Positions 3,213-14,148 of a DNA stretch of 14,223 nt are shown piece after piece. The notes under the pieces are model-generated. The model was not told the origin of the DNA, ran no database searches, and was given only the letters and a program-made list of their open reading frames with translations. The stretch lies in UHGV virus genome UHGV-0168750; one strand, given 5' to 3'. Numbering within the stretch: position 1 is the first letter of the stretch; each line of letters begins with the position of its first letter. Both the position numbers and the translations under genes were made by a program. Source of the stretch: a virus.

Positions 3213-3406
3213 AGATTTGGTTACCGATTGTAGCTTTTGTTCTTATTGCGGGCGCACTAGCAAGTGCCGAGTGTGACAATCGTGTTTTAGAAAAGAAAAG
3301 CGAATTGTATCAGGATTGCATAAAGGACTACACACCCGGTACAGAGCTTCATGCGCAGGCTGTAAAAAGTTGTGCGCTGATGGCTGAATCGCAGACTCGT
3401 TCCTAA
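3209..3406 (+). CDS. Small secreted or periplasmic Cys-containing protein (65 aa) with a signal-peptide-like N-terminus
   Basis: MKIWLPIVAFVLIAGALASA then ECDN; four Cys in the mature part; ATGA overlap with the upstream gene. No canonical lipobox. Confidence 0.5.
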   Translation: MKIWLPIVAFVLIAGALASAECDNRVLEKKSELYQDCIKDYTPGTELHAQAVKSCALMAESQTRS

Positions 3407-3780
3407 TGCGTATCTGGACGTTACAGCTTGCTAAGTGGCGGTTAGCGAAATCGAAGGGATTTTACGCGGTAGATATTACAGTCAAATCAGGGCGAAAGGA
3501 ACTCGCCCCCGACTGGGATTTCTTAATGGCGTATAAAAACTCCACAAAGGACGCAACTGCTGAAGCCGACTATACCGTAAAGTATCTTTACAAGCTTGAA
3601 CGATTACTGGACTCAGATGCCGAAGTGTTGGTATCGTTACTTAGGCACGAAGACCTGGTGCTGATGTGTTATTGTCCCGCAGGTAAGTTTTGCCATCGAC
3701 ACTTACTGGCTAAGAAACTTCAAGACGTCGGAATGATGTTCGGTTTTGACGTTGAGTTATGTGGAGAATTAACGGACTGA
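3406..3780 (+). CDS. Hypothetical protein (124 aa) with a C-x-C-x6-CHR motif; possibly DUF488/YeaO-like
   Basis: TAATG coupling; motif LVLMCYCPAGKFCHRHLLAKKL near the C-terminus. Family assignment is from memory of the DUF488 pattern, not a search. Confidence 0.5.
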   Translation: MRIWTLQLAKWRLAKSKGFYAVDITVKSGRKELAPDWDFLMAYKNSTKDATAEADYTVKYLYKLERLLDSDAEVLVSLLRHEDLVLMCYCPAGKFCHRHLLAKKLQDVGMMFGFDVELCGELTD

Positions 3781-3868: not shown

Positions 3869-4429
3869 GTGGCCACTTACGTACCTGATTTAAGCCTGAC
3901 CTCAGCCGAATTAGTGGTCGCTTTAATCAACCACGATAACGGTTCACAGTTGTCTTTAAGAGAAATTCGTATTAGCAACACTGTGGTAAACCCGTCTCCG
4001 ACCACTTCGCGTCGTAACACACTGTCAGAGATTACAAAAATCAGGAAACCTGACGGTGCTTCTGTGGTTGTTTATTACGATCGCTTAGATGCGGAAGAAG
4101 TATTAGCTTCTGAACCTATTTTGATTTCGTTAGACGGTACTGAAGATAACATTCGTGACATTTTAGATGTTGTAAATGAATTCTGCGGAACGAACTTACA
4201 GCCTGACGATTTGCGCGCTTCAGATATCACATTAGGTAACGATCCCATTGCTGTTAACGTTGCTGACGATTCTCCTGCGTGGATGAATGCGTTTATGGTG
4301 ACGTTATTCGATACAACCGAACGAGCATTAGCCAACGAAGAAGACGCGATCTTCTGTATTGGCGATGTTGCTGTTCTTACATTTGAGGTTCCAGATGGCG
4401 ACTCAGCTGAAGAAAACCCGACTACATGA
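3869..4429 (+). CDS. P1a: conserved small protein (186 aa), paralogue of 13013-13528; likely tail-fibre-associated
   Basis: GTG at 3869 preceded by GGGAGG (3858-3863). N-terminus VATYVPDLSLTS..LINHD matches MGQFVPDLSLTS..LINHD of the paralogue; shared motifs KIRxP, YYxRLxAE, CG(T/S)NLQP(D/E)DL, VLTF. The ORF-track start at 3800 lies inside the terminator hairpin. Confidence 0.6.
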   Translation: MATYVPDLSLTSAELVVALINHDNGSQLSLREIRISNTVVNPSPTTSRRNTLSEITKIRKPDGASVVVYYDRLDAEEVLASEPILISLDGTEDNIRDILDVVNEFCGTNLQPDDLRASDITLGNDPIAVNVADDSPAWMNAFMVTLFDTTERALANEEDAIFCIGDVAVLTFEVPDGDSAEENPTT

Positions 4430-4856
4430 ACTTGACAGTTTTACCGGTGACCCACAGGGCGGGGTATTACTGTTTAGTAAAGAGAATAAAGAATACAAAA
4501 TTAACGCCGAACAGTTACTACCAACGAACACCGTAACTACGGTAAACGGTGCTGACGGCACGGCAACGATTAATCCAAATAACGTTACTGACGTTATACT
4601 GGTATTAAACGATCCTGCGACAACCTTAACTATCTCCCCGTTAACGGAAGCCAAAGCAAACGTTCGGGTTGAGTTTTATTTAACCGTTAAGCAAGGAACA
4701 GGGGCGAATAAGATTACTTGGCCGGATAATGTAAAATGGCCACATAACGCAACTCCTGTTTTGTCCTTTACAGCTAATGCGGAAGATACATTAGCGTTCT
4801 ATACGCTTGATGGTGGGACTACGTGGAAAGGTTCCCTCATCGCCGCAGGTTACTAA
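4395..4856 (+). CDS. P2a: small protein (153 aa) carrying the shared N-terminal module (putative virion-docking domain)
   Basis: ATG at 4395 preceded by GAGGT; residues 5-40 KKTRLHELDSFTGDPQGGVLLFSKENKEYKINAEQL align with the N-termini of the long fibre and of 13528-14148. Overlaps P1a by 35 nt. Confidence 0.6.
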   Translation: MATQLKKTRLHELDSFTGDPQGGVLLFSKENKEYKINAEQLLPTNTVTTVNGADGTATINPNNVTDVILVLNDPATTLTISPLTEAKANVRVEFYLTVKQGTGANKITWPDNVKWPHNATPVLSFTANAEDTLAFYTLDGGTTWKGSLIAAGY

Positions 4857-4858
4857 CG

Positions 4859-7800
4859 ATGAGAAAAACTTTTCAACGACACGCTATTTCTTACGCACTG
4901 TCGTTAGCCTACGGGCACCAAACATTCGTTACTCGAAATACGGGGACAACGAATGATGCTCACACAGACCACTTTATTCAGAATGAAGAAGGGGTCTTAG
5001 CTAATAACCGTCACTTTATTGCAGATACGATGGCGGAGTACCAGCCCAATGGTGATGCAACGACCGAAGGTCAATCGCTACACATCCTTGGGTACTGTCA
5101 TCTGTATATTGCAACTAAAGACCCAAGATGGTTAGATGCAGCAAAACATGCATGGGATGCTTACACTACCTACTTTTACGGTGGGCAAGCTATTCCGACT
5201 ACACCTCAGCGTTTTATTTGTAACTGGTTAGTAAACGGAAAAGAGCCGGTACTCGCGCACTATCCGATACACCCAACAGAACCTACACACGGTGGTTACA
5301 AATGTGTACCCGTCAGGTTCACTAACGGTCAGTGCAAAATACCACACGGTGCACCGTTCTGGGGTGAATATCTAGACACCTTTACGTTTGCTCATCGTGG
5401 TCATCCAACGTGGGGTGCTATTAATGCGGACGTACAGATTATCAAGGAGGATAAAGAAGGGTTAATCGATTGGGATGCTGTGTTAACGCATCTGATTACG
5501 AATCCCGATAAACCTTACGAAACGAAAGCCTGGGTTGACTGGCCAACGTTACTGAACAACGCTACTGGCTACACACCGCTGTGGGGTGGTTCTTCATCAA
5601 AAGGACCTAAGCACGATGTCGACTGGATAGTTGCCTGGACAGGTAACAAGATTCAGGATAGCGAGATTATTGAGTCGGGCTTAGCAGACGCCGATAAAGG
5701 TACCGTACAGTTAAAAGATACTCAATTAAACGGTGTCTATTTAATTAACTACGCGGTAAAACTTCCTGTCGAGCACGGCGGTTATGCTTTTAAACGTAAT
5801 GAACCGTGGCACAACCGACCCGTACATACACCATTCTTAGGCTCTAAGAACCAGTACGGTAATGCAGCAGATGCAGAACTGTGGTTTATCGACGCTTGTT
5901 ATTTGCTGTGGCGAATTACAGGTGAAGATAAATACAAACACGCGTTAGACTGTGCGTTTTACACCGCACACGAGTATACGTATATTGATGCCGCCGACAA
6001 GTTCTTTAGACGTTCTACGGCCGCAGAAACACCGTTTACCGATGGTATCTCTTACGACTTCGATTATCCCGATACCGTGAGCGTCGAATACGGTCGCGAT
6101 ACGAATGGCGATATCACTATCCACGCACCTAAAGCTGTACAACACTTTATGGAGCAGCAAGCAGTACGTTTTAGAATCAATAAAGATTCTAAGCTCAGAG
6201 TGACGTATGGTGGTGTGTGTAAAAACGGTGACCCGGTATATTGTCGTGCGATGGTTGACATTAATCCGGTAAAGGCTGACACGGAAGAAGTGAACTGGTA
6301 CGGTTTAACGTTACCCCGTTCTACTTCGTTAAGCGTTAAGCAATACGATATTGACTTAGGTCAACTTGCACGGATTACTACCCCAGAAGGGGAAGACTAT
6401 TTAATCGCAGATGCACGAGCCTGCTCGGATTACGGCGGTTGTACGTGGGAAGAACGGTTTGAAGACAATATCTACGATGGTCGTGCGGGTACCATTGTCG
6501 AAGCTTTATTTCCGAATGACGATGCGGGCTTTATTATCGGTTTCTGGTTAACCGAAGCGGAGAAGGTTAAGCCGGTTTCTATCGTTTATCGTGCGGACGC
6601 AGACTTTAACCTACGTTTAGTTGATTCTGATAACTGGCGTTGGTGGTGGATGTTACCGAACACGAACAACGAATGGCGACAAGTAACCTTAAATTTAGAG
6701 GACGCGACGTTATCGGGATACCAACCTGACCACACTGACGCTGATCCTGAGCCTTCAGCACCTAACTTCGATAAGGTTGACCAGGTTACTATCCTGCCCG
6801 ATTCTGCTGTAGACCACGCTCACTTTGCTTACTATTGCGTGAATGATGTCCCGCCGGTCTTTAATAAAGATGATGGGTATATCCTCACGTTCCGTATCGC
6901 TTTACGCGGTGGGAGTGAGTTTGACGCAAAAGTCGGCGATTGTACCATCAAAGACTATCGTTTAGACTCACTGGCGTATTGTCCTGGGACGATTCCGTTC
7001 TCGAATATTTATTCAGAAGGGTCTGAACAGCTCGGTGCATGGCACGGTATGCCCTACCCAGGTTATCAATATCCGTTTATGTACGCAATACACAAAGATG
7101 ACCGGTATAAACTGTGGTTAGAGAACCAAATACAGTTTATGCATGACTCGCAAATTGCGTATCAAAAACAGATTGGTGAGTTAGGGCCAGGTTGTGCAGC
7201 CTATATCTGGAATCGTTGGGATAACTACAGTTACGGAAAACCAGATACCTGGACAACATTCCATTGGGGTGACGATCACCCCTGGGCAGGCTACCAACCG
7301 CGCGCATTTCATGCTGCCTGTCGGTGTTGGTACGAGTTAACGTTACGAGGCAAATCAGTTCCTGAGACGTTAACAACCTATATCGAGAATTGGGTGAATT
7401 GGTTAGGTGGGTTTGTGGATAGGTTTAATGGCCACACGCCAAACGAGTTCCCCACAGCACCGAATAAGCCGGTTTGGGTAGAAGACGACTTTACAGCGCA
7501 TATGTGTGCGCTGTGGTTAGCGGGTTGTTGCTGGGCGTTACTTGCCGGTGCGACGAACCCTAACTACGAAAAAGTAGTTAATGCCGCAATTAAAGAGCTC
7601 GGTGACGGGTTTACGATTACGTCAATTCCAAACAAACCCATTAATGGTGCTTGGTCGCCTGCGCCACGAGAGTCTTCGGATAACGGAATGGCTTTTGGTT
7701 TCTATACCGGTGAAGCATTACGTGCTTTAGGACTTTATATCACTTATAAAACTTACGGAGCCAACACAAACATTTATCATGACTTAGCAATCCCAGAACA

Positions 7801-7864
7801 CGAAAGCGCGGTATTAGACGTCACCATCGCCTTAGAAGATGACGCATTAAAACCGGAATTATAA
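4859..7864 (+). CDS. Large Trp/Tyr-rich protein (1001 aa); putative virion-associated carbohydrate-active enzyme (depolymerase-like)
   Basis: ATG at 4859 is 3 nt after the P2a stop, in frame with the ORF-track GTG at 4823. Helical segments such as ADAELWFIDACYLLWRITGEDKYKHALDCAFYTAHEY and AHMCALWLAGCCWALLAGATNPNYEKVVNAAIKELGDG recall alpha/alpha-barrel glycosidases or lyases. Existence of the gene is secure; the function is inferred. Confidence 0.7.
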   Translation: MRKTFQRHAISYALSLAYGHQTFVTRNTGTTNDAHTDHFIQNEEGVLANNRHFIADTMAEYQPNGDATTEGQSLHILGYCHLYIATKDPRWLDAAKHAWDAYTTYFYGGQAIPTTPQRFICNWLVNGKEPVLAHYPIHPTEPTHGGYKCVPVRFTNGQCKIPHGAPFWGEYLDTFTFAHRGHPTWGAINADVQIIKEDKEGLIDWDAVLTHLITNPDKPYETKAWVDWPTLLNNATGYTPLWGGSSSKGPKHDVDWIVAWTGNKIQDSEIIESGLADADKGTVQLKDTQLNGVYLINYAVKLPVEHGGYAFKRNEPWHNRPVHTPFLGSKNQYGNAADAELWFIDACYLLWRITGEDKYKHALDCAFYTAHEYTYIDAADKFFRRSTAAETPFTDGISYDFDYPDTVSVEYGRDTNGDITIHAPKAVQHFMEQQAVRFRINKDSKLRVTYGGVCKNGDPVYCRAMVDINPVKADTEEVNWYGLTLPRSTSLSVKQYDIDLGQLARITTPEGEDYLIADARACSDYGGCTWEERFEDNIYDGRAGTIVEALFPNDDAGFIIGFWLTEAEKVKPVSIVYRADADFNLRLVDSDNWRWWWMLPNTNNEWRQVTLNLEDATLSGYQPDHTDADPEPSAPNFDKVDQVTILPDSAVDHAHFAYYCVNDVPPVFNKDDGYILTFRIALRGGSEFDAKVGDCTIKDYRLDSLAYCPGTIPFSNIYSEGSEQLGAWHGMPYPGYQYPFMYAIHKDDRYKLWLENQIQFMHDSQIAYQKQIGELGPGCAAYIWNRWDNYSYGKPDTWTTFHWGDDHPWAGYQPRAFHAACRCWYELTLRGKSVPETLTTYIENWVNWLGGFVDRFNGHTPNEFPTAPNKPVWVEDDFTAHMCALWLAGCCWALLAGATNPNYEKVVNAAIKELGDGFTITSIPNKPINGAWSPAPRESSDNGMAFGFYTGEALRALGLYITYKTYGANTNIYHDLAIPEHESAVLDVTIALEDDALKPEL

Positions 7865-7883
7865 CCCGCTTATAAAAAAAAAT

Positions 7884-7905
7884 GGGGGAGCATTCTACCT
7901 CCCCC
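7884..7905 (+). promoter_or_regulatory. GC-rich hairpin in the intergenic region upstream of the long tail-fibre gene
   Basis: GGGGGAG (7884-7890) / CTCCCCC (7899-7905) with an 8-nt loop, preceded by TATAAAAAAAAA (7871-7882); only a short T run follows, so a weak terminator or RNA stability/processing element. Confidence 0.3.
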
Positions 7906-7938
7906 GATCTTTTAGCTCCCGATAGAGAATTAAATATC

Positions 7939-10900
7939 ATGGCTAAAGCGGTCAAGAAAATACGTTTGCACGATTTACGTCCTTACGCCGGTGATATCGG
8001 TGAAGGCGTTTTGCTTTTTTCGAAAGACGAAAAAGATTATCAATTACCAGTCCGTGAGATCGTTGCTGATATTGACACCGTAAGGAACGCGGTTGCTGAT
8101 GCACAGTCCGCAGCAGCACAATCACAACAGTCGGCCACAGAAGCAACACAAGCAAAAGATTTAGCGGAAACCGCGAAACAGCAGGTTGACACTACCGCAT
8201 CAACTGTTAGCGAACAAGCACAAACGGTAGCAACAAAAGCGGCTGAGGTCGGCACAAAACATGCCGAAGTTTTAGCAGCAAAAACAGCAGTAGACACTGT
8301 TTTACAGTCGGTGAACGAAAAGGCTCAGGCCGTCTCTGCGAGTGAAAAAGCAGTCACAACAGCCGCCGCCGACGTAACGAAGAAAGCAGAAACTGTTACC
8401 CAGCAAGCTGGTCAAGTTCAACAGTCAGTCACTAGCATCACTGAAATTGCGGCAACTGTTGAAGCCAGTAAAGGCGCTGTGGAAGCTACTGCTGTACAAG
8501 TTACGAAAGACAAAGAATCCGCAGAAGGGGCAGCGACGCGTTCAGAAGCTGCTGCACAACGTGCTGAAGACATCGCTGCACAGGGGTTAATTGACGCCAC
8601 TACAGCTAACAAGGGTATCGTTAAACTTAATAATACCCTAACCAGTGATTCAGTAACGGAAGCGGCTACACCGTCGACAGTGAAGCAACTGAACGACGAG
8701 CTGCAATTAAAAGCCAACAAGCACTCACCGAACTTTACGGGGCAGCCGTCAGCACCAACACCTCCGAAAAATTCTAATGATACCAGTATTTCGACTACTG
8801 CGTGGGTACGTGCAGCTATCGCTGAATTAGTCGGTTCTTCTCCTGAAACGTTAGATACCTTAGCGGAATTAGCCGAAGCGCTGGGTAATGATCCTAACTT
8901 CGCAACAACGATTACTGAGAAACTTGCGCAGAAGCAACCTATCAGTCCGTTACTCACTGCAATCGCTGCGGTTACGACAGCGGCAAATAAACTCCCGTAT
9001 TTCACCGGCACTAATAAAGTCGGGTTAGCCGATTTTACAGAAACCGCCAGAACGTTATTAGCGAAAGGTTCAACAACCGAAATCATTGAGTTTTTAGGAT
9101 TAAAAGCCACCGTAGATAAAGCGAATGGCGCATTACAGAAAAACTCTAATGGTGCTGATATTCCAGATAAAGAAACATTTGCCCGCAATATTGGTCTGTC
9201 TCCTGACACTTATCTGCGTTTCCGTGGTGAAATGCCAACTGATGCGGATATCAACACTTTCGCCCCAGATACCAACTACACGGGTACGTGGTCGAAAGCA
9301 ACCTCGACCAACGCGACAATGGCAAAACACTTTCCAGAAGACGGTGCGGTCGGTTATCTGGAAGTGTATAAAGCGGGTAACTATAGCGGTGCACAACGTT
9401 TTACCTGTCGTAATGGTAACGTCTATAACCGTATGTTGTCAGGTGTGTGGAACGGCACTAATGGCCCGTGGTCACCGTGGAGAATGGTAACTACCGGTGT
9501 ACGTCCACTGGCTACATCAATTGACCTGAACTCCTTAGGCGGTGCCGAACACATGGGTAACTGGCGAAACTCGTCCAGTTCGTTGGCTACCTTTGCTAAC
9601 CACTACCCGGAAGAGGGCGGTGCTGCTCAAGGTGTTTTGGAAGTCATGGAAGGCGGTCTTTACGGACGTTTACAACGTTACACTACTCGACGTGGTACGA
9701 TGTATGTTCGTGGTTTGACGGCGACGTGGGATTCTACTAATCCGCAATGGGAAGATTGGATTCAGGTAGGTTATCAAACCGACGGCGCGTATTACAAAGG
9801 AAACTTCGATAACCTGACTAAACCAGGTCGTTTCAGCGTCACTGGAGAAGCCACGAATGGTCCCCTTACAGGTCCTTCGGGTGAAACATTGTTGGGTGTC
9901 TGTGCAGTTACTGTACGTTTAGACGGTACAGGGATCGAACAAACCTACACCACGCACGGTACAGGTGCGGAGTACAAAGGTCGACGTTTCCACCGTATTC
10001 GTACGGGTAATGTCTGGACGCCGTGGCGCGAGATTTACGACTCGAACAGTTTAGCCATGTTGTTAGGGGTCGGCGGCGAACGTGCGAATGTTGATCCTTT
10101 AGACTGGCAAACCTACGACTTTAAACCGGGTGAATTAATCTGTACGCCACTTAATACCATGAAAAACATTCCTGCGGGAATGGATTGGGGTGTTATCGAC
10201 GGTAATTTAATTAACATCCTGGTTGGGCCATCTGATGGCGCTACGTCAGGTCGAAGTATGTTGGTTTGGCGTAGTACGGTGTCTACCGCCAACTATCGCT
10301 TCTTTGCAGTACGTATCGCCGGTGAGAAGGGTAGCCGTACGATTACGCCACGACAAATGCCTGTGTTGAATGCGGCGCACACTTGGACAGAGAAACAGAC
10401 CTTTGCAAAAGGCTTGTCGGGCGAATTAACCGGTAATGCTTCAACCGCAACCAAATTACAAACTGCCCGGAAAATCGGTGGCGTTGGGTTTGACGGTAGT
10501 GGTGATATTAACCTCCCAGGCGTAAACCAACAGGGTAATCAAAACACCACGGGTAATGCCGGGACAGCCACTAAACTTCAAACCGCCAGAAATATTAACG
10601 GCGTGAGATTCGACGGTTCTGGCGATATTAATATCAACACCCTGGTAGGTCGTGGTCGGGTTACAGCTCTAACCGGCTCAGCGAAAGGTACACCTGGTAT
10701 CCAGATGTACGAAGTTTACAATAACGGTTATCCGACCGCTTATGGTAACTTACTACATTTAGGTGGTTCTACAGCTGTAGGCGAAGGCGAACTGTTAATC
10801 GGTTGGTCAGGTACTAACGGCGCACACGCCCCAGTGTTTATCCGTAGTCGTCGCGACAATGCGGAAGCACCATGGTCGGACTGGGCACAGGTATACACCG

Positions 10901-12441
10901 CCCGCGATAGCATCCCAGGGGTAAACGCGACTGGTAATCAAGATACTACCGGTAACGCGGCTACCGCGACGAAGTTGAAAACCGCTCGCAAAATTGGCGG
11001 TGTGAGCTTTGATGGTACTGGGGATATCAATTTACCGGGGGTTAACCAGCAAGGCAACCAGAATACGACAGGTAATGCAGCAACCGCTACCAAGTTACAA
11101 ACCGCAAGAACCATCAATGGTGTTGCGTTTGACGGCACTAAAAACATCGAAATAACGGCTGAAAGTTTAAATCTTGGTCAAACCGTAGAATTGGCCGGTG
11201 GGTCATTGCAGAAAAACCAGAACGGCGCAGATATTCCTGATAAGGGTCGCTTCCTGAGTAACATTAATGTTTACAGCAAAGGCGAGGTGGATGAGAAAAA
11301 AGGAATGCGGCAGTACGTATTTAACGCGCCGTCTAATGCCGTTGGCGGAAAGTGGTATCCAGTTATTTTCCGGCGTTCCACTGGTAGCACCGGCGAACTG
11401 GCTTCCAGAGTAGTTATTACAACTACATCTGCCGGTGGCGATTACGCAATGAATAACTGCGAATTCAATGGAACGGTAATGGCGGGCGGTTGGACTGATC
11501 GCGGTTCATACGCAGCAGGGTATTTTTCGATATATCAGACTAATGAGCGCGCAATCCATTCCATTGTAACAGGTGTGAAAGATGATGATGTGTGCAGCGT
11601 TTTTTACGTCGAAGGTAGGGCTTTCCCTATTCGAGTTTTTGCCGAAGAAGGGTTATCGGTTAGTGTTCCGACCCAGAATTATACCGTCGGTCAAACAACC
11701 TATAAGTGGGGAGCAACTAATCCTGCGACAGAAAGCACGAACGCACAAACCATTTTGGATTTTAACAATGGACGAGGATTTTATTGTTCCCATTCAATAT
11801 TCGCTATTAATAGTATTTTAAGCGGTAATCTGGGTATCGGTACCGCGAATGCTTTAGGTGGGAATTCCATAGTTTTAGGGGATAATGACACCGGTCTTAA
11901 ACAGAATGGGGACGGTATTCTAGATGTCTATGCCAACGGTCGACATGTATACCGTTTTCAAAACGGCATTGCTATTGCTCTTTATGGTGTTCAGGCTGGT
12001 AACGGTAAAAAACTTTCGTTAACTAGCGCAAACAATTCCACGTTGAATGCGGGTCTTAACATTTGGGGTAACTCTTCGCGTCCAACTGTTGTAGAACTCG
12101 GTGATGACGCAGGCTGGCATTTTTATAGCCAACGAAACACCGACAACTCGATATCGTTCGCCGTTAATGGGCAAATTCAACCGGGAAACTGGAGTAATTT
12201 CGATTCCAGGTACCAAGCACGGTCAGGAGTTGTCCAGGATGTTCGTTTCGGTGGTCAAAGTTATCATAACCCCGGGAGTAATACGACCTCTTGGAATTTC
12301 TCCGCTCCAGGTGGTCATTGTCTTACTGGTATTTCTATATCGGATACTGGCAAAAACTCGGCAGATAACGTTAACGGTGTTTATTATCGCCCGCTACAAA
12401 AATTGGTTAATGGTACTTGGTACAACGTCGCGTCGGTATAG
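7939..12441 (+). CDS. Long tail fibre protein (1500 aa)
   Basis: N-terminal shared module [36 protein letters not shown]; Ala/Gln/Thr-rich coiled-coil-like region; tandem ~75-aa domains; four copies of the tail-fibre repeat TGNAxTATKLxTARxIxGVxFDGSGDI; C-terminal [13 protein letters not shown]-type motif; followed by a Tfa chaperone gene. The ORF-track start at 7882 lies inside the hairpin. Confidence 0.85.
9247..10038 (+). repeat. Three tandem ~75-aa domain repeats inside the fibre (a fourth diverged copy at about 10640-10897)
   Basis: Each unit ends in a Trp-rich motif: [38 protein letters not shown], and in the fourth copy [12 protein letters not shown]. Protein-level periodicity; the nucleotide sequences are diverged. 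Confidence 0.45.
10432..10636 (+). repeat. Pair of tail-fibre sequence repeats (~33 aa each) inside the fibre gene
   Basis: [69 protein letters not shown]; the T-A-T-K-L...FDGSxDI pattern is the classical phage tail-fibre repeat shared by T-even and lambdoid side fibres. Confidence 0.7.
10933..11154 (+). repeat. Second pair of tail-fibre sequence repeats
   Basis: [74 protein letters not shown]; same motif as 10432-10636 with many synonymous differences, so an old duplication. Confidence 0.7.
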
Positions 12442-12443
12442 TT

Positions 12444-12974
12444 ATGTTACATTTAAAAAATATTCGTTCAGGAAACCCTAAAACTCCCGAACAGTGGGAG
12501 CTTACCAAGCGCTTAGGCGTCATATGGCTTTACGATGAAACCGGAAAAAATTGGTATGAGGAGCAAAAGAATTTTCAAGCAGATACTATAAAATTCGGGT
12601 ACGATGCGGACGGCATCATACGTTGGAAGGTTAAAGACATAACGTCGATAAACCCTGACAGTTTAAGCGTTGTTGAAGTTCCCGACGTTATTATAAACCG
12701 TCGTGTCGAATGTAACGGCGAGTGGATGTTTAAAGACGGACGCGCAATCAAGCGGATTTATACGCCGGAGGAGCTGGTTCAACGTGCTGAATCTAAAAAA
12801 GCCGTATTGTTGTCCGAGGCAGAAACAGTCATTAAGCCGCTTGAGCGGGCTGTTAAGCTGAAAATCGCAACAGATCTCGAGCGGTTACGGCTGGAAGCCT
12901 GGGAGGGTTATACTGTAATGATCAGTCGCGTCGATACTAATAATCCCGTCTGGCCTGAAAAACCGCTAATATAA
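12444..12974 (+). CDS. tfa: Tail fibre assembly protein (Tfa-type chaperone, 176 aa)
   Basis: ATG 2 nt after the fibre stop. C-terminus [46 protein letters not shown] matches the conserved Tfa motif (lambda Tfa ends ...[48 protein letters not shown], from memory). The ORF-track start at 12417 overlaps the fibre gene and is rejected. Confidence 0.85.
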
Positions 12975-13012
12975 CCAGCTTGAAACTTCTCTGAAAATTG
13001 GAGGTAAGCTTT

Positions 13013-13528
13013 ATGGGGCAATTCGTGCCGGATTTGTCACTGACCTCACCTAACATGGTTATTTCGTTGATCAATCACGACCTTCAGCTTGATCTGCAAG
13101 AAACCGATGTTGAGTTTAGCGAACTAAAATCTAGCGACACGATGGATCGTGACACCACTGCTGTTGTAAAGATTAGACGTCCTGGTAACAGAACGTTACA
13201 AATCTATTACAACCGTTTAACCGCAGAACGTTGGTTAAACCAGCAACCTATTCTGGTGCAAGTAACTGGCGAGGGGTTTAGCACACACGATTTAATCGAC
13301 GCGATTAACGCAGCCTGTGGCAGTAACCTGCAACCCGAAGATCTTCAGGACGATTCATTTACAGTAGGAAAAGACGCTGTAACGTTACAGGTATCACCTA
13401 ACTCCCTAAGTTATAAAGGCCAATTCTCTGTTTTGGTTTTTGGTAACGGCGAAGAAGCCGCGGTAACAAAAGACGACAACTTAATTGTTACCGCAGATAA
13501 TCGTGTCTTAACCTTCGGAGGTCAATAA
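13013..13528 (+). CDS. P1b: conserved small protein (171 aa), paralogue of 3869-4429
   Basis: ATG at 13013 preceded by TGGAGG; N-terminus MGQFVPDLSLTS..LINHD and internal motifs shared with P1a; stop TAA overlaps the next ATG (TAATG at 13526-13530). Confidence 0.65.
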   Translation: MGQFVPDLSLTSPNMVISLINHDLQLDLQETDVEFSELKSSDTMDRDTTAVVKIRRPGNRTLQIYYNRLTAERWLNQQPILVQVTGEGFSTHDLIDAINAACGSNLQPEDLQDDSFTVGKDAVTLQVSPNSLSYKGQFSVLVFGNGEEAAVTKDDNLIVTADNRVLTFGGQ

Positions 13529-14148
13529 TGGCTGAATTGGTAGGAAAGGTACGTGTTCACGAACTGCCGTCGCTTTCAGAAGACATCACGGGTGTAGTAG
13601 TCTTAGCGTCTAAGGAACAAACCGAATATCAACTCCCGATTGAGAATTTAGGGGGTGGCGAGGTTACAGTGAGTCCGTCAGCGAATAACATCCTTAAGTC
13701 TAACAGCGATGGACTGTTTGTTGACGGCGCACATCCTATTATACCGAAAATGGATGCAAAAACCTTATCGGGAAATATGGTGGTAGAAAAAACGCTGACA
13801 GGTGGCGCGGTAATCTGCAAAACAATGGTTGACGTTAATAATAGGCTGGGGATTTCGCAATTATCTGGAGTGTCAATTTATAGCCAGTGCCTGCTGGAAA
13901 ATAAATTGGTTTACCTGGCAGAAGACGGCAGTATTATTGATGCGTACTTCTACATCAGTAATACAAAAACCACTGCCAGTACAATAACGCACACTATTCG
14001 GGTTGTGTTAGCGAAGATACCTTCTAAAGTTATTGATATCACCGATTTGTCTGAAACTGAGGTGCAATACCAGGATGGTAATCTACCTGTTAAGATCGTT
14101 ATTAAACATCTTGTGGGTACAACACTTTCTCAGAATGGGATGAAATAG
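13528..14148 (+). CDS. P2b: protein (206 aa) carrying the shared N-terminal module; putative second short fibre or receptor-binding protein
   Basis: Residues 6-41 GKVRVHELPSLSEDITGVVVLASKEQTEYQLPIENL align with the N-termini of P2a and the long fibre; the C-terminal ~165 aa are unrelated to both. Confidence 0.65.
   Translation: MAELVGKVRVHELPSLSEDITGVVVLASKEQTEYQLPIENLGGGEVTVSPSANNILKSNSDGLFVDGAHPIIPKMDAKTLSGNMVVEKTLTGGAVICKTMVDVNNRLGISQLSGVSIYSQCLLENKLVYLAEDGSIIDAYFYISNTKTTASTITHTIRVVLAKIPSKVIDITDLSETEVQYQDGNLPVKIVIKHLVGTTLSQNGMK

What the first reader, a model, noticed from the sequence alone, without database searches (positions are those of the whole stretch)
4395..7864. Possible split enzymatic tailspike: small docking-module protein followed by a large enzyme-like protein that lacks the module
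The 1001-aa protein starts 3 nt after the P2a stop and has no docking module. It is Trp/Tyr-rich with helical repeats reminiscent of alpha/alpha-barrel carbohydrate-active enzymes (for example DNWRWWWMLPNTNNEW and AHMCALWLAGCCWALLAGATNP). One reading is a two-component depolymerase in which P2a supplies the anchor and the large protein the catalytic or receptor-binding part. It could alternatively be a single gene split by a real or artefactual frameshift, though the two frames differ and P2a has its own C-terminal domain.
Basis: inference. Interest (0 to 1): 0.75.

Follow-up and report, generated by a model that had tools for sequence, protein, structure and literature searches.

The report
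Phage tail adaptor plus barrel-enzyme pair
Two adjacent phage tail genes, a small anchor protein and a 1001-residue protein folded like a sugar-cutting enzyme, are real, separate genes. They belong to a gene pair found in more than 500 phages (phi92 gp140/gp141, rV5 gp43/gp42) whose function has never been tested.

Summary
P2a (4395-4856, 153 aa) and the large protein (4859-7864, 1001 aa) are separate genes in different frames, 2 nt apart. P2a shares a ~42-aa N-terminal module with two other tail proteins in the window; the large protein lacks it.

The split is not a frameshift. An independent metagenome assembly has an identical junction. The same small-plus-large pair sits adjacent in about 520 phage genomes: jumbo phages, rV5 and phi92 relatives, Rosemountvirus, 7-11-like podophages and a siphophage.

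Only the C-terminal beta-sandwich of P2a is conserved across lineages. Its N-terminus changes with the phage type: Tail_spike_N, phage_tail_N, a long lineage-specific N-terminal region, or the window's module. In other lineages the large protein is fused directly to the P2 baseplate protein gpI, to Prophage_tail or to a Gp77 adaptor domain.

Best reading: a portable adaptor-plus-enzyme tail module. Binding and catalysis are untested.

It is a new member of a known but uncharacterised family. Interest is moderate.

The parts
4395..4856 (+). P2a, 153-aa small tail protein (adaptor candidate). It overlaps the upstream DUF7941 gene by 35 nt.
   Evidence: ORF and translation. phrog_9017 'tail fiber protein' E=1.9e-40. 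Homologues: Asesino gp140, SPFM11_00233 annotated 'Phi92_gp140', SPN3US_0123.
4395..4520 (+). N-terminal ~42-aa docking module of P2a (MATQLKKTRLHELDSFTGDPQGGVLLFSKENKEYKINAEQLL).
   Evidence: Shared with the fibre (45%, E=3.8e-10) and the 206-aa protein (46%, E=1e-7). Low pLDDT (~50) in the monomer model, with a beta hairpin at residues 24-37. Found by tblastn only in 22 SPN3US/Asesino-type jumbo-phage records.
4533..4853 (+). C-terminal beta-sandwich domain of P2a (residues ~47-153). This is the only part conserved across phage lineages. It contains an Asp-box-like TLDGGTTWKG.
4859..7864 (+). Large 1001-aa tail protein, an (alpha/alpha)6 barrel with two inserted beta-rich regions.
4859..5194 (+). 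Barrel segment 1 (residues 1-112): helices 2-26, 69-86 and 89-106. Boundaries are approximate, taken from the secondary-structure string.
   Evidence: DSSP of the model. D66, E70 and Q72 are invariant at the start of helix 69-86 in 17 homologues of 30-80% identity.
5060..5077 (+). TTEGQS motif (residues 68-73) with invariant E70, a candidate catalytic acid.
   Evidence: It resembles TTSEGQS in E. coli BcsZ (GH8), where the Glu is residue 55. That this Glu is the GH8 catalytic acid is recalled knowledge, not tested here. The pattern occurs in 2 of 20000 shuffles of the protein, but it was chosen post hoc.
5195..5830 (+). Insertion 1 (residues ~113-324), a beta-rich domain between barrel helices.
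   Evidence: DSSP strands 147-318. Its invariant residues are almost all Gly or Pro, with two Ala and one Leu, so they look structural.
5831..5992 (+). Barrel segment 2 (residues 325-378): helices 337-354 and 357-372, with the AADAELW motif (5864-5884).
   Evidence: D338, E340 and D345 are invariant. The motif resembles ASDGDVW of BcsZ, from residue 114. That this corresponds to the GH8 signature is recalled knowledge.
5993..7015 (+). Insertion 2 (residues ~379-719), all-beta region, probably sandwich domains. It contains DNWRWWWMLPNTNNEW.
   Evidence: DSSP strands 398-698. Polar invariants are D380, R384, D395, R413, D589, Q622, N662 and D694. phrog_23426 matches residues 494-667.
7016..7861 (+). 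Barrel segment 3 (residues 720-1001): helices 751-772, 812-829, 836-855, 880-895, 902-916 and 947-966.
   Evidence: DSSP. Invariants are Y733, Q737, Q765, W784, R786, R815, W845, E952 and Y960.
3869..4429 (+). DUF7941 protein directly upstream of P2a. It is a candidate acceptor for the docking module (inference).
   Evidence: PF25613 E=6e-19. The gene call starts at 3869. It precedes the small gene only where the small protein carries this module: Asesino gp139, SPFM11_00232 and, by size and position, SPN3US_0122 (not scanned against Pfam). It is absent upstream in rV5, GAP31, GAP52 and the phi92-like phage.
7939..8064 (+). Copy of the docking module at the start of the long tail fibre (ORF 7882-12441).
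13528..13650 (+). Copy of the docking module at the start of the 206-aa protein, again just after a DUF7941 gene (13013-13528).

Best explanation
P2a and the 1001-aa protein form a portable two-gene tail module, an adaptor and a payload.

The N-terminal ~42 residues of P2a are the same anchor used by this phage's long fibre and by a third tail protein. They plug P2a into a common acceptor on the tail or baseplate. That acceptor may be the DUF7941 protein encoded just upstream (inferred).

The conserved C-terminal beta-sandwich of P2a holds the large protein (inferred from gene linkage and domain conservation).

The large protein is a globular (alpha/alpha)6 barrel, probably monomeric. Invariant acidic and aromatic residues sit at the start of several helices inferred to be the inner barrel helices, which is where glycoside hydrolases of this fold bind and cut sugar chains. 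Displayed on the virion, it most likely binds, and probably cleaves, a surface or envelope polysaccharide during adsorption.

Shown here: the gene structure, the homology, the fold, the conserved pairing and the exchangeable N-termini. Shown in the literature: virion presence of the homologues.

Inferred: the P2a-large contact, the acceptor, the oligomeric state, catalysis and the substrate.
For: Separate genes and no artefact:
- Different frames, own stop and start codons.
- A second metagenome assembly is identical through the junction.

Linkage:
- The large protein occurs in 535 phage records and the P2a C-domain in 520, with near-identical taxon counts.
- The small gene abuts the large gene, from an 8-nt overlap to a 3-nt gap, in Asesino, SPFM11, SPN3US, GAP52, rV5, GAP31, PaulScherrer, ciri and a siphophage contig.

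Exchangeable anchors on a constant C-domain:
- Tail_spike_N in rV5-type phages.
- phage_tail_N in a siphophage.
- A long lineage-specific N-terminal region in 7-11-like podophages.
- The window's module in the jumbo clade.

Covalent alternatives to the adaptor:
- The large domain is fused to P2 gpI inside a V-W-J-I baseplate operon.
- It is fused to a C-terminal Gp77 fibre-tail adaptor domain.
- It is fused to Prophage_tail and, below Pfam's cut-off, to Phage_min_tail.

Fold:
- pLDDT 90.2 and pTM 0.87.

Conserved pocket candidates:
- D66, E70, Q72, D338, E340, R815 and E952 are invariant down to 30% identity.
- The TTEGQS motif resembles the BcsZ segment TTSEGQS.

P2a C-domain fold:

Virion presence of homologues:
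- rV5 gp42 and gp43 were detected by mass spectrometry, and the gp43 N-terminus resembles the P22 tailspike N-terminus (PMC3606486).
- S144 ORF16 and ORF17 (21 and 111 kDa) were detected by mass spectrometry (PMC7432712). Their equivalence to this pair is inferred from size and gene order.
Against:
- No natural small-plus-large fusion was found among 120 homologues.
- Pairwise identities of the two proteins correlate only moderately (r=0.60 over 21 non-independent pairs).
- No sequence link to any glycoside hydrolase family: no Pfam, NCBIfam or PDB hit, and hhalign against BcsZ gives probability 0.2.
- The barrel fold is also used by epimerases, terpene cyclases and thioester proteins.
- Conservation is unusually high for a host-range determinant (46-60% identity between unrelated phage families). 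That could equally indicate a structural role.
- Residue positions in the pocket could not be checked in 3D.
Confidence: 0.55

Rival explanations
1. The large protein is a non-catalytic structural or lectin-like tail component. The barrel would be a rigid hub or sugar-binding platform at the tail periphery, perhaps organising the fibres encoded next to it, and it would cut nothing.
For: - Strong conservation across phages of very different hosts.
- In Vequintavirinae it sits inside the baseplate gene block, followed by fibre genes.
- It is fused to the wedge protein gpI in a P2-like element.
- It has no sequence match to any enzyme family.
- The fold also occurs in non-enzymes such as complement C3, TEP1 and CD109.
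Against: - Invariant Asp, Glu, Arg and aromatic residues cluster at the start of several helices inferred to be the inner barrel helices, as in active (alpha/alpha)6 enzymes.
- The TTEGQS motif resembles the BcsZ segment around Glu55, recalled as the GH8 catalytic acid.
- Distant relatives are fused to Prophage_tail (Tal-type) proteins, which usually carry envelope-degrading enzymes; that generalisation is recalled knowledge.
Confidence: 0.27
2. P2a is an independent short receptor-binding or structural tail protein. It is co-transcribed with the large protein but does not bind it, and the large protein attaches to the virion by its own surfaces.
For: - P2a has a complete fold of its own, and PHROGs label it 'tail fiber protein'.
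- The large protein can be anchored without it when fused to gpI.
- Co-evolution signal is only moderate.
Against: - Near-perfect co-occurrence and strict adjacency in about 520 genomes across myo-, podo-, sipho- and jumbo phages, although the pair moves between genome neighbourhoods.
- Only the C-domain is conserved, while the N-terminal anchor is swapped.
- Where the small gene is missing, the large protein carries a covalent anchor instead.
Confidence: 0.12
3. One gene was broken by a sequencing or assembly frameshift, or by a recent real frameshift.
For: The genes are 2 nt apart in different frames, and coverage of the contig is low (~5x).
Against: - An independent assembly from another sample is identical across 4300-4960.
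- Homologues in about 520 phages keep two genes.
- P2a ends at the conserved C-terminus (...GxLIxAGY).
- The large protein begins at the family's usual N-terminus, aligned from residues ~6-10.
- The N-terminal helix 2-26 appears to be part of the barrel (inferred from the DSSP string).
Confidence: 0.01

Closest known systems
The phi92 gp140/gp141-type pair: rV5 gp43/gp42, SPN3US_0123/0124, Asesino gp140/gp141, PaulScherrer bas60_0024/0025 (PHROG 9017 or 7760 with PHROG 2871; VOG5264 with VOG1347)
   Same: Full-length homology of both proteins, with the same order and tight spacing. PaulScherrer's large protein is already annotated 'lateral tail fiber protein with several glycosidase domains'. 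The rV5 proteins are mass-spectrometry-confirmed virion components.
   Different: This copy is 79.5% identical to the nearest deposited phage and has no near DNA match. It is followed by an extra fibre, chaperone, DUF7941 and short-protein cassette that Asesino, SPFM11 and SPN3US lack. The small protein's N-terminus differs from the rV5 and phi92 versions.
Branched receptor-binding complexes built on adaptor domains (CBA120 TSP2/TSP4, G7C gp66 with gp63.1)
   Different: The payload here is an (alpha/alpha)6 barrel, probably monomeric (inferred), not a trimeric beta-helix tailspike with its own N-terminal head. The fold match is modest and the contact is not shown. How the CBA120 and G7C complexes work is recalled knowledge.
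(alpha/alpha)6-barrel glycoside hydrolases: GH126/GH8-like CPF_2247 (3REN), GH8 endoglucanases (BcsZ, CelA), GH105/GH88, GH76
   Different: There is no significant sequence similarity. The barrel is interrupted by ~210-aa and ~340-aa beta-rich insertions. No activity is known.
Tail proteins with enzyme extensions (siphophage Tal/Prophage_tail, P2 gpI-type wedge proteins)
   Same: Relatives of the large protein occur as C-terminal extensions of gpI (P0085) and of Prophage_tail (P0289).
   Different: In the window the enzyme-like protein is a free polypeptide and needs a separate anchor.

Membership tests
phi92 gp141 / rV5 gp42-type tail protein (PHROG 2871, VOG1347) | Full-length sequence homology to family members | tested here: met
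   phrog_2871 E=0, residues 6-983. 79.5% identity to Asesino gp141, with 521 phage records covering at least 80% of the query.
phi92 gp141 / rV5 gp42-type tail protein (PHROG 2871, VOG1347) | Immediately preceded by a small gene with the conserved C-terminal domain (PHROG 9017/7760, VOG5264) | tested here: met
   P2a matches phrog_9017 at E=1.9e-40 and phrog_7760 through its C-domain. Adjacency is seen in all loci inspected.
phi92 gp141 / rV5 gp42-type tail protein (PHROG 2871, VOG1347) | Component of the virion | not testable with these tools
   Known only for homologues: rV5 gp42/gp43 and, by inference from size and order, S144 ORF16/ORF17.
Glycoside hydrolase family 8 (and clan relatives GH48, GH126) | Significant sequence match to the family profile or a family member | tested here: not met
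   No Pfam hit for the full protein or the barrel-only construct. No PDB hit by phmmer or by profile. hhalign against BcsZ gives probability 0.2.
Glycoside hydrolase family 8 (and clan relatives GH48, GH126) | (alpha/alpha)6 barrel fold | tested here: met
Glycoside hydrolase family 8 (and clan relatives GH48, GH126) | Catalytic Glu in the SEGQ-type motif, plus the Asp-rich signature | tested here: inconclusive
   TTEGQS (E70) and AADAELW (D338, E340) are invariant and resemble BcsZ TTSEGQS and ASDGDVW. No residue-level structural superposition was available, and the catalytic role of BcsZ E55 is recalled knowledge.
Glycoside hydrolase family 8 (and clan relatives GH48, GH126) | Glycosidic bond cleavage | not testable with these tools
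   Needs biochemistry.
Classical tailspike depolymerase | Right-handed beta-helix catalytic domain (trimeric) | tested here: not met
Classical tailspike depolymerase | Particle-binding N-terminal domain on the same chain | tested here: not met
   No match to the window's module. The N-terminal helix 2-26 appears to be part of the barrel, inferred from the DSSP string.
Adaptor of branched receptor-binding complexes (gp10-like / XD-type docking domain), for P2a | N-terminal anchor shared with other fibres of the same phage | tested here: met
   45-46% identity over 41-42 aa with two other tail proteins of the window.
Adaptor of branched receptor-binding complexes (gp10-like / XD-type docking domain), for P2a | Docking domain with the fold of known attachment domains | tested here: inconclusive
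Adaptor of branched receptor-binding complexes (gp10-like / XD-type docking domain), for P2a | Binds a second tail protein | not testable with these tools
The claim is inferred from gene linkage only.

The most novel reading that the evidence does not exclude
The family would be a new, sequence-orphan glycoside hydrolase family, with a GH8-like catalytic Glu in TTEGQS. It would be an (alpha/alpha)6 enzyme, probably monomeric, that many unrelated phages (jumbo, rV5/phi92, Rosemountvirus, 7-11-like, siphophages, P2-like elements) mount on their tails through a dedicated adaptor with an exchangeable anchor. Its high conservation would mean that it attacks a conserved envelope or matrix glycan of Gram-negative bacteria, for example a beta-linked polymer such as cellulose or a common-antigen-type chain, rather than a serotype-specific capsule.
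Probability: 0.3. Interest if true: 0.65.

Novelty: new member of a known kind. Interest (0 to 1): 0.4.

Why it matters
Phi92- and rV5-type phages are known for multi-tool tails, yet which gene makes which part is still unclear (PMC8594841). This gene pair is one of the most conserved parts of those tail loci, and it also occurs in therapeutic-candidate Salmonella, Erwinia and Cronobacter phages.

It has no Pfam or NCBIfam model, no solved structure and no tested function. A confident enzyme-like fold, a short list of candidate catalytic residues and an adaptor with swappable anchors give direct experiments. If the protein is active, it would be a broadly conserved phage enzyme against a common bacterial surface sugar, on a natural plug-in scaffold for engineering tails.

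For this window itself, the result is mostly a clean annotation of an ordinary member of that family.

Tried and rejected
- **Near DNA match in phage genomes.** None was found.
- **Sequence-family assignment of the large protein.** Pfam, NCBIfam, PDB by phmmer and PDB by profile all gave nothing. A barrel-only construct and the two insertions on their own also gave nothing.
- **hhalign of the family profile against E. coli BcsZ (GH8).** Both the full profile and the barrel-only profile were not significant.
- **Lead that this is the Vequintavirinae/N4 'glycan deacetylase' NGR receptor-binding protein.** Rejected. N4 gp64 shows no similarity to the window protein or to rV5 gp42. The NGR-binding fibre is phi92 gp142, the next gene.
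- **Natural fusions of the small and large proteins.** None was found among 120 homologues.
- **Mirror-tree style correlation.** It is weak (r=0.60).
- **Foldseek against AFDB50.** The library was unavailable.
- **BFVD search.** It returned only unannotated relatives.
- **Exhaustive HMMER search of 1.84 billion representatives.** It found only 246 clusters, with no short cellular enzyme-like relatives among the 150 listed. Pfam scans of distant members gave tail-protein fusions and one sub-threshold GH76 hit, but no bridge to a glycoside hydrolase family.
- **Literature searches for phi92 gp141 and SPN3US gp123/124.** They found no functional study.

Full report
**What is in the sequence**

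The window is a phage tail-fibre region from a metagenome contig (ENA ERZ1026973, NODE_339). P2a runs from ATG 4395 to TAA 4854-4856 and encodes 153 aa. The large protein starts at ATG 4859, 2 nt after that stop and in another frame, and ends at 7864, encoding 1001 aa.

The first 42 residues of P2a recur in two other proteins of the window. They appear at the start of the long fibre, from its internal ATG at 7939 (45% identity, E=3.8e-10). They also appear at the start of the 206-aa protein at 13528 (46%, E=1e-7). The large protein has no such module; its best match is E=0.27.

The large protein is rich in Trp (3.6%) and Tyr (5.8%). The spacer is 2 nt rather than 3. One of the two quoted 'helical' motifs (DNWRWWW..., residues 591-606) lies on beta strands.

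**Not an artefact and not a broken gene**

A second assembly from another sample (ERZ28629076) carries the same genes. It is identical to the window throughout the overlap, apart from 31 mismatches confined to its first ~40 bases, and the junction is included in the identical part.

The two-gene arrangement is also the rule elsewhere. tblastn finds the large protein in 535 phage records and the P2a C-terminal part in 520, with almost the same counts per host genus.

In every locus opened, the small gene directly abuts the large one. These loci are:
- Asesino gp140/141, SPFM11_00233/234 and SPN3US_0123/0124;
- GAP52 gp101/100, rV5 (222 aa and 865 aa) and GAP31_221/222;
- PaulScherrer bas60_0024/0025 and ciri_66/65;
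- a siphophage-like contig.

The SPFM11 small protein is annotated 'Phi92_gp140', so the pair corresponds to phi92 gp140/gp141.

**The large protein**

PHROGs place it in phrog_2871, 'tail protein', at E=0. Pfam, NCBIfam and PDB sequences give nothing, even with a 61-sequence profile or a barrel-only construct.

An AlphaFold2 model built on 61 homologues is confident: pLDDT 90.2 and pTM 0.87. About twelve long helices lie in three sequence blocks, residues 1-112, 325-378 and 720-1001. Two beta-rich insertions separate them, at ~113-324 and ~379-719.

No full-length solved relative exists.

Across 17 homologues down to 30% identity, 89 positions are invariant. They include D66, E70, Q72, D338, E340, D345, R815 and E952 at the start of several helices inferred to be the inner barrel helices. 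That is where this fold places its active site, which is established knowledge for (alpha/alpha)6 glycosidases.

Two motifs resemble segments of E. coli BcsZ:
- TTEGQS (residues 68-73) resembles TTSEGQS of BcsZ, in which I recall Glu55 as the catalytic acid.
- AADAELW (residues 336-342) resembles ASDGDVW, which I recall as part of the GH8 signature.

The first pattern arises in 2 of 20000 shuffles, but it was picked after the fact. hhalign against BcsZ is not significant. I therefore claim a glycosidase-like fold with a conserved candidate pocket. I do not claim membership of GH8.

**P2a**

Alignments of small proteins from different lineages show that only the C-terminal ~95 residues are conserved. 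Invariant positions include Q100, G103, N105, W109, P110, W115, P121, D131, D139, G141, W144 and G146, and there is an Asp-box-like turn.

The N-terminus differs by lineage:
- Tail_spike_N (PF18668) in rV5-type proteins. The rV5 paper noted similarity to the P22 tailspike N-terminus.
- phage_tail_N (PF08400) in a siphophage contig, where the small gene follows the gpJ-like hub gene after one 83-aa ORF and precedes a 1473-aa large homologue.
- A long, lineage-specific N-terminal region in 7-11-like podophages.
- The window's module in SPN3US/Asesino-type jumbo phages only (22 records).

**Other ways the large protein is anchored**

- In a P2-like element it is fused behind the wedge protein gpI (Tail_P2_I), within a V-W-J-I operon.
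- One relative ends in a Gp77 fibre-tail adaptor domain.
- One distant relative carries a Prophage_tail N-terminus. Another has a Phage_min_tail match that falls below Pfam's cut-off.
- No small-plus-large fusion was seen.

The pair also moves between genome neighbourhoods:
- the baseplate block in rV5, GAP31 and phi92-like phages;
- after the head and connector genes in Rosemountvirus and GAP52;
- the fibre cluster in jumbo phages.

**Virion presence**

rV5 gp42 and gp43 were found in the virion proteome. In phage S144 a 21-kDa and a 111-kDa 'tail protein' pair was detected by mass spectrometry, and HHpred hinted at hydrolase activity for the larger one. Its equivalence to this pair is inferred from size and gene order.

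**Interpretation**

The best-supported model is a portable adaptor-plus-payload module. The N-terminal module of P2a docks on the tail, and its conserved C-domain holds a globular barrel protein. That protein binds, and probably cleaves, a surface polysaccharide.

Gene structure, homology, fold, linkage and anchor exchange are shown. The physical contact, the copy number, the catalysis and the substrate are inferred. The main rival is that the barrel is structural or lectin-like. The high conservation across phages of unrelated hosts fits that view as well as it fits a conserved substrate.

**Leads rejected**

The 'glycan deacetylase' receptor-binding protein of Vequintavirinae and N4, which targets the NGR glycan, is a different protein. 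It corresponds to phi92 gp142, encoded by the next gene. N4 gp64 is unrelated to the window protein.

**Novelty**

The family is small at the 50% identity level: 246 clusters out of 1.84 billion representatives. [quoted passage not shown] The alpha/alpha toroid fold is a known but rare fold among predicted phage depolymerases, about 1%.

I found no functional or structural study of the family. The window therefore holds a new member of a known, uncharacterised kind. The 'split gene' framing is not right.

Noticed in passing
window 3869-4429 and 13013-13528: Two DUF7941 (PF25613) paralogues each sit directly upstream of a gene whose product starts with the ~42-aa docking module. DUF7941 precedes the small gene only in the jumbo-phage clade that uses this module (Asesino, SPFM11 and, by position, SPN3US). 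It is absent there in rV5, GAP31, GAP52 and the phi92-like phage. It is therefore a candidate acceptor for the module.
   Followed up: partly
window 7882-12441: The 1519-aa fibre ORF starts at ATG 7882. The docking module begins at the internal ATG 7939 ([13 protein letters not shown]), matching the 'MA' starts of P2a and the 13528 protein, so the true start may be 7939.
   Followed up: partly
window 7882-14148: The cassette of fibre, Caudo_TAP chaperone (12444-12974), second DUF7941 and 206-aa module protein follows the large gene here. In Asesino, SPFM11 and SPN3US small hypothetical genes follow instead. This looks like a mosaic insertion of extra receptor-binding genes.
   Followed up: partly
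window 13528-14148: This 206-aa protein has the docking module plus a C-terminal part that matches only the last ~160 positions of an 842-position PHROG of unknown function (phrog_33169). It may be a short fibre or tip protein.
   Followed up: no
window 3406-3780: A DUF488-type protein is encoded just upstream of the DUF7941 gene, and SPN3US has a DUF488 gene upstream of its own pair, two genes before the DUF7941-type gene. This shows shared gene order with Seoulvirus-type jumbo phages.
   Followed up: no
window 8418-9209 (minus strand): A 263-aa antisense ORF lies inside the Ala/Thr-rich N-terminal part of the fibre gene. It is most likely a composition artefact rather than a gene.
   Followed up: no
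window 10400-11500 (fibre residues ~840-1200): The fibre contains repeated segments of the type [23 protein letters not shown] (Phage_fiber_2-like), in at least four copies.
   Followed up: no
L006 5001-8294; L015 8001-13509: The barrel protein occurs fused to P2 gpI in a P2-like baseplate operon. It also occurs as a 1473-aa version behind a phage_tail_N small protein in a siphophage-like tail operon. The same module is thus reused across tail types.
   Followed up: partly
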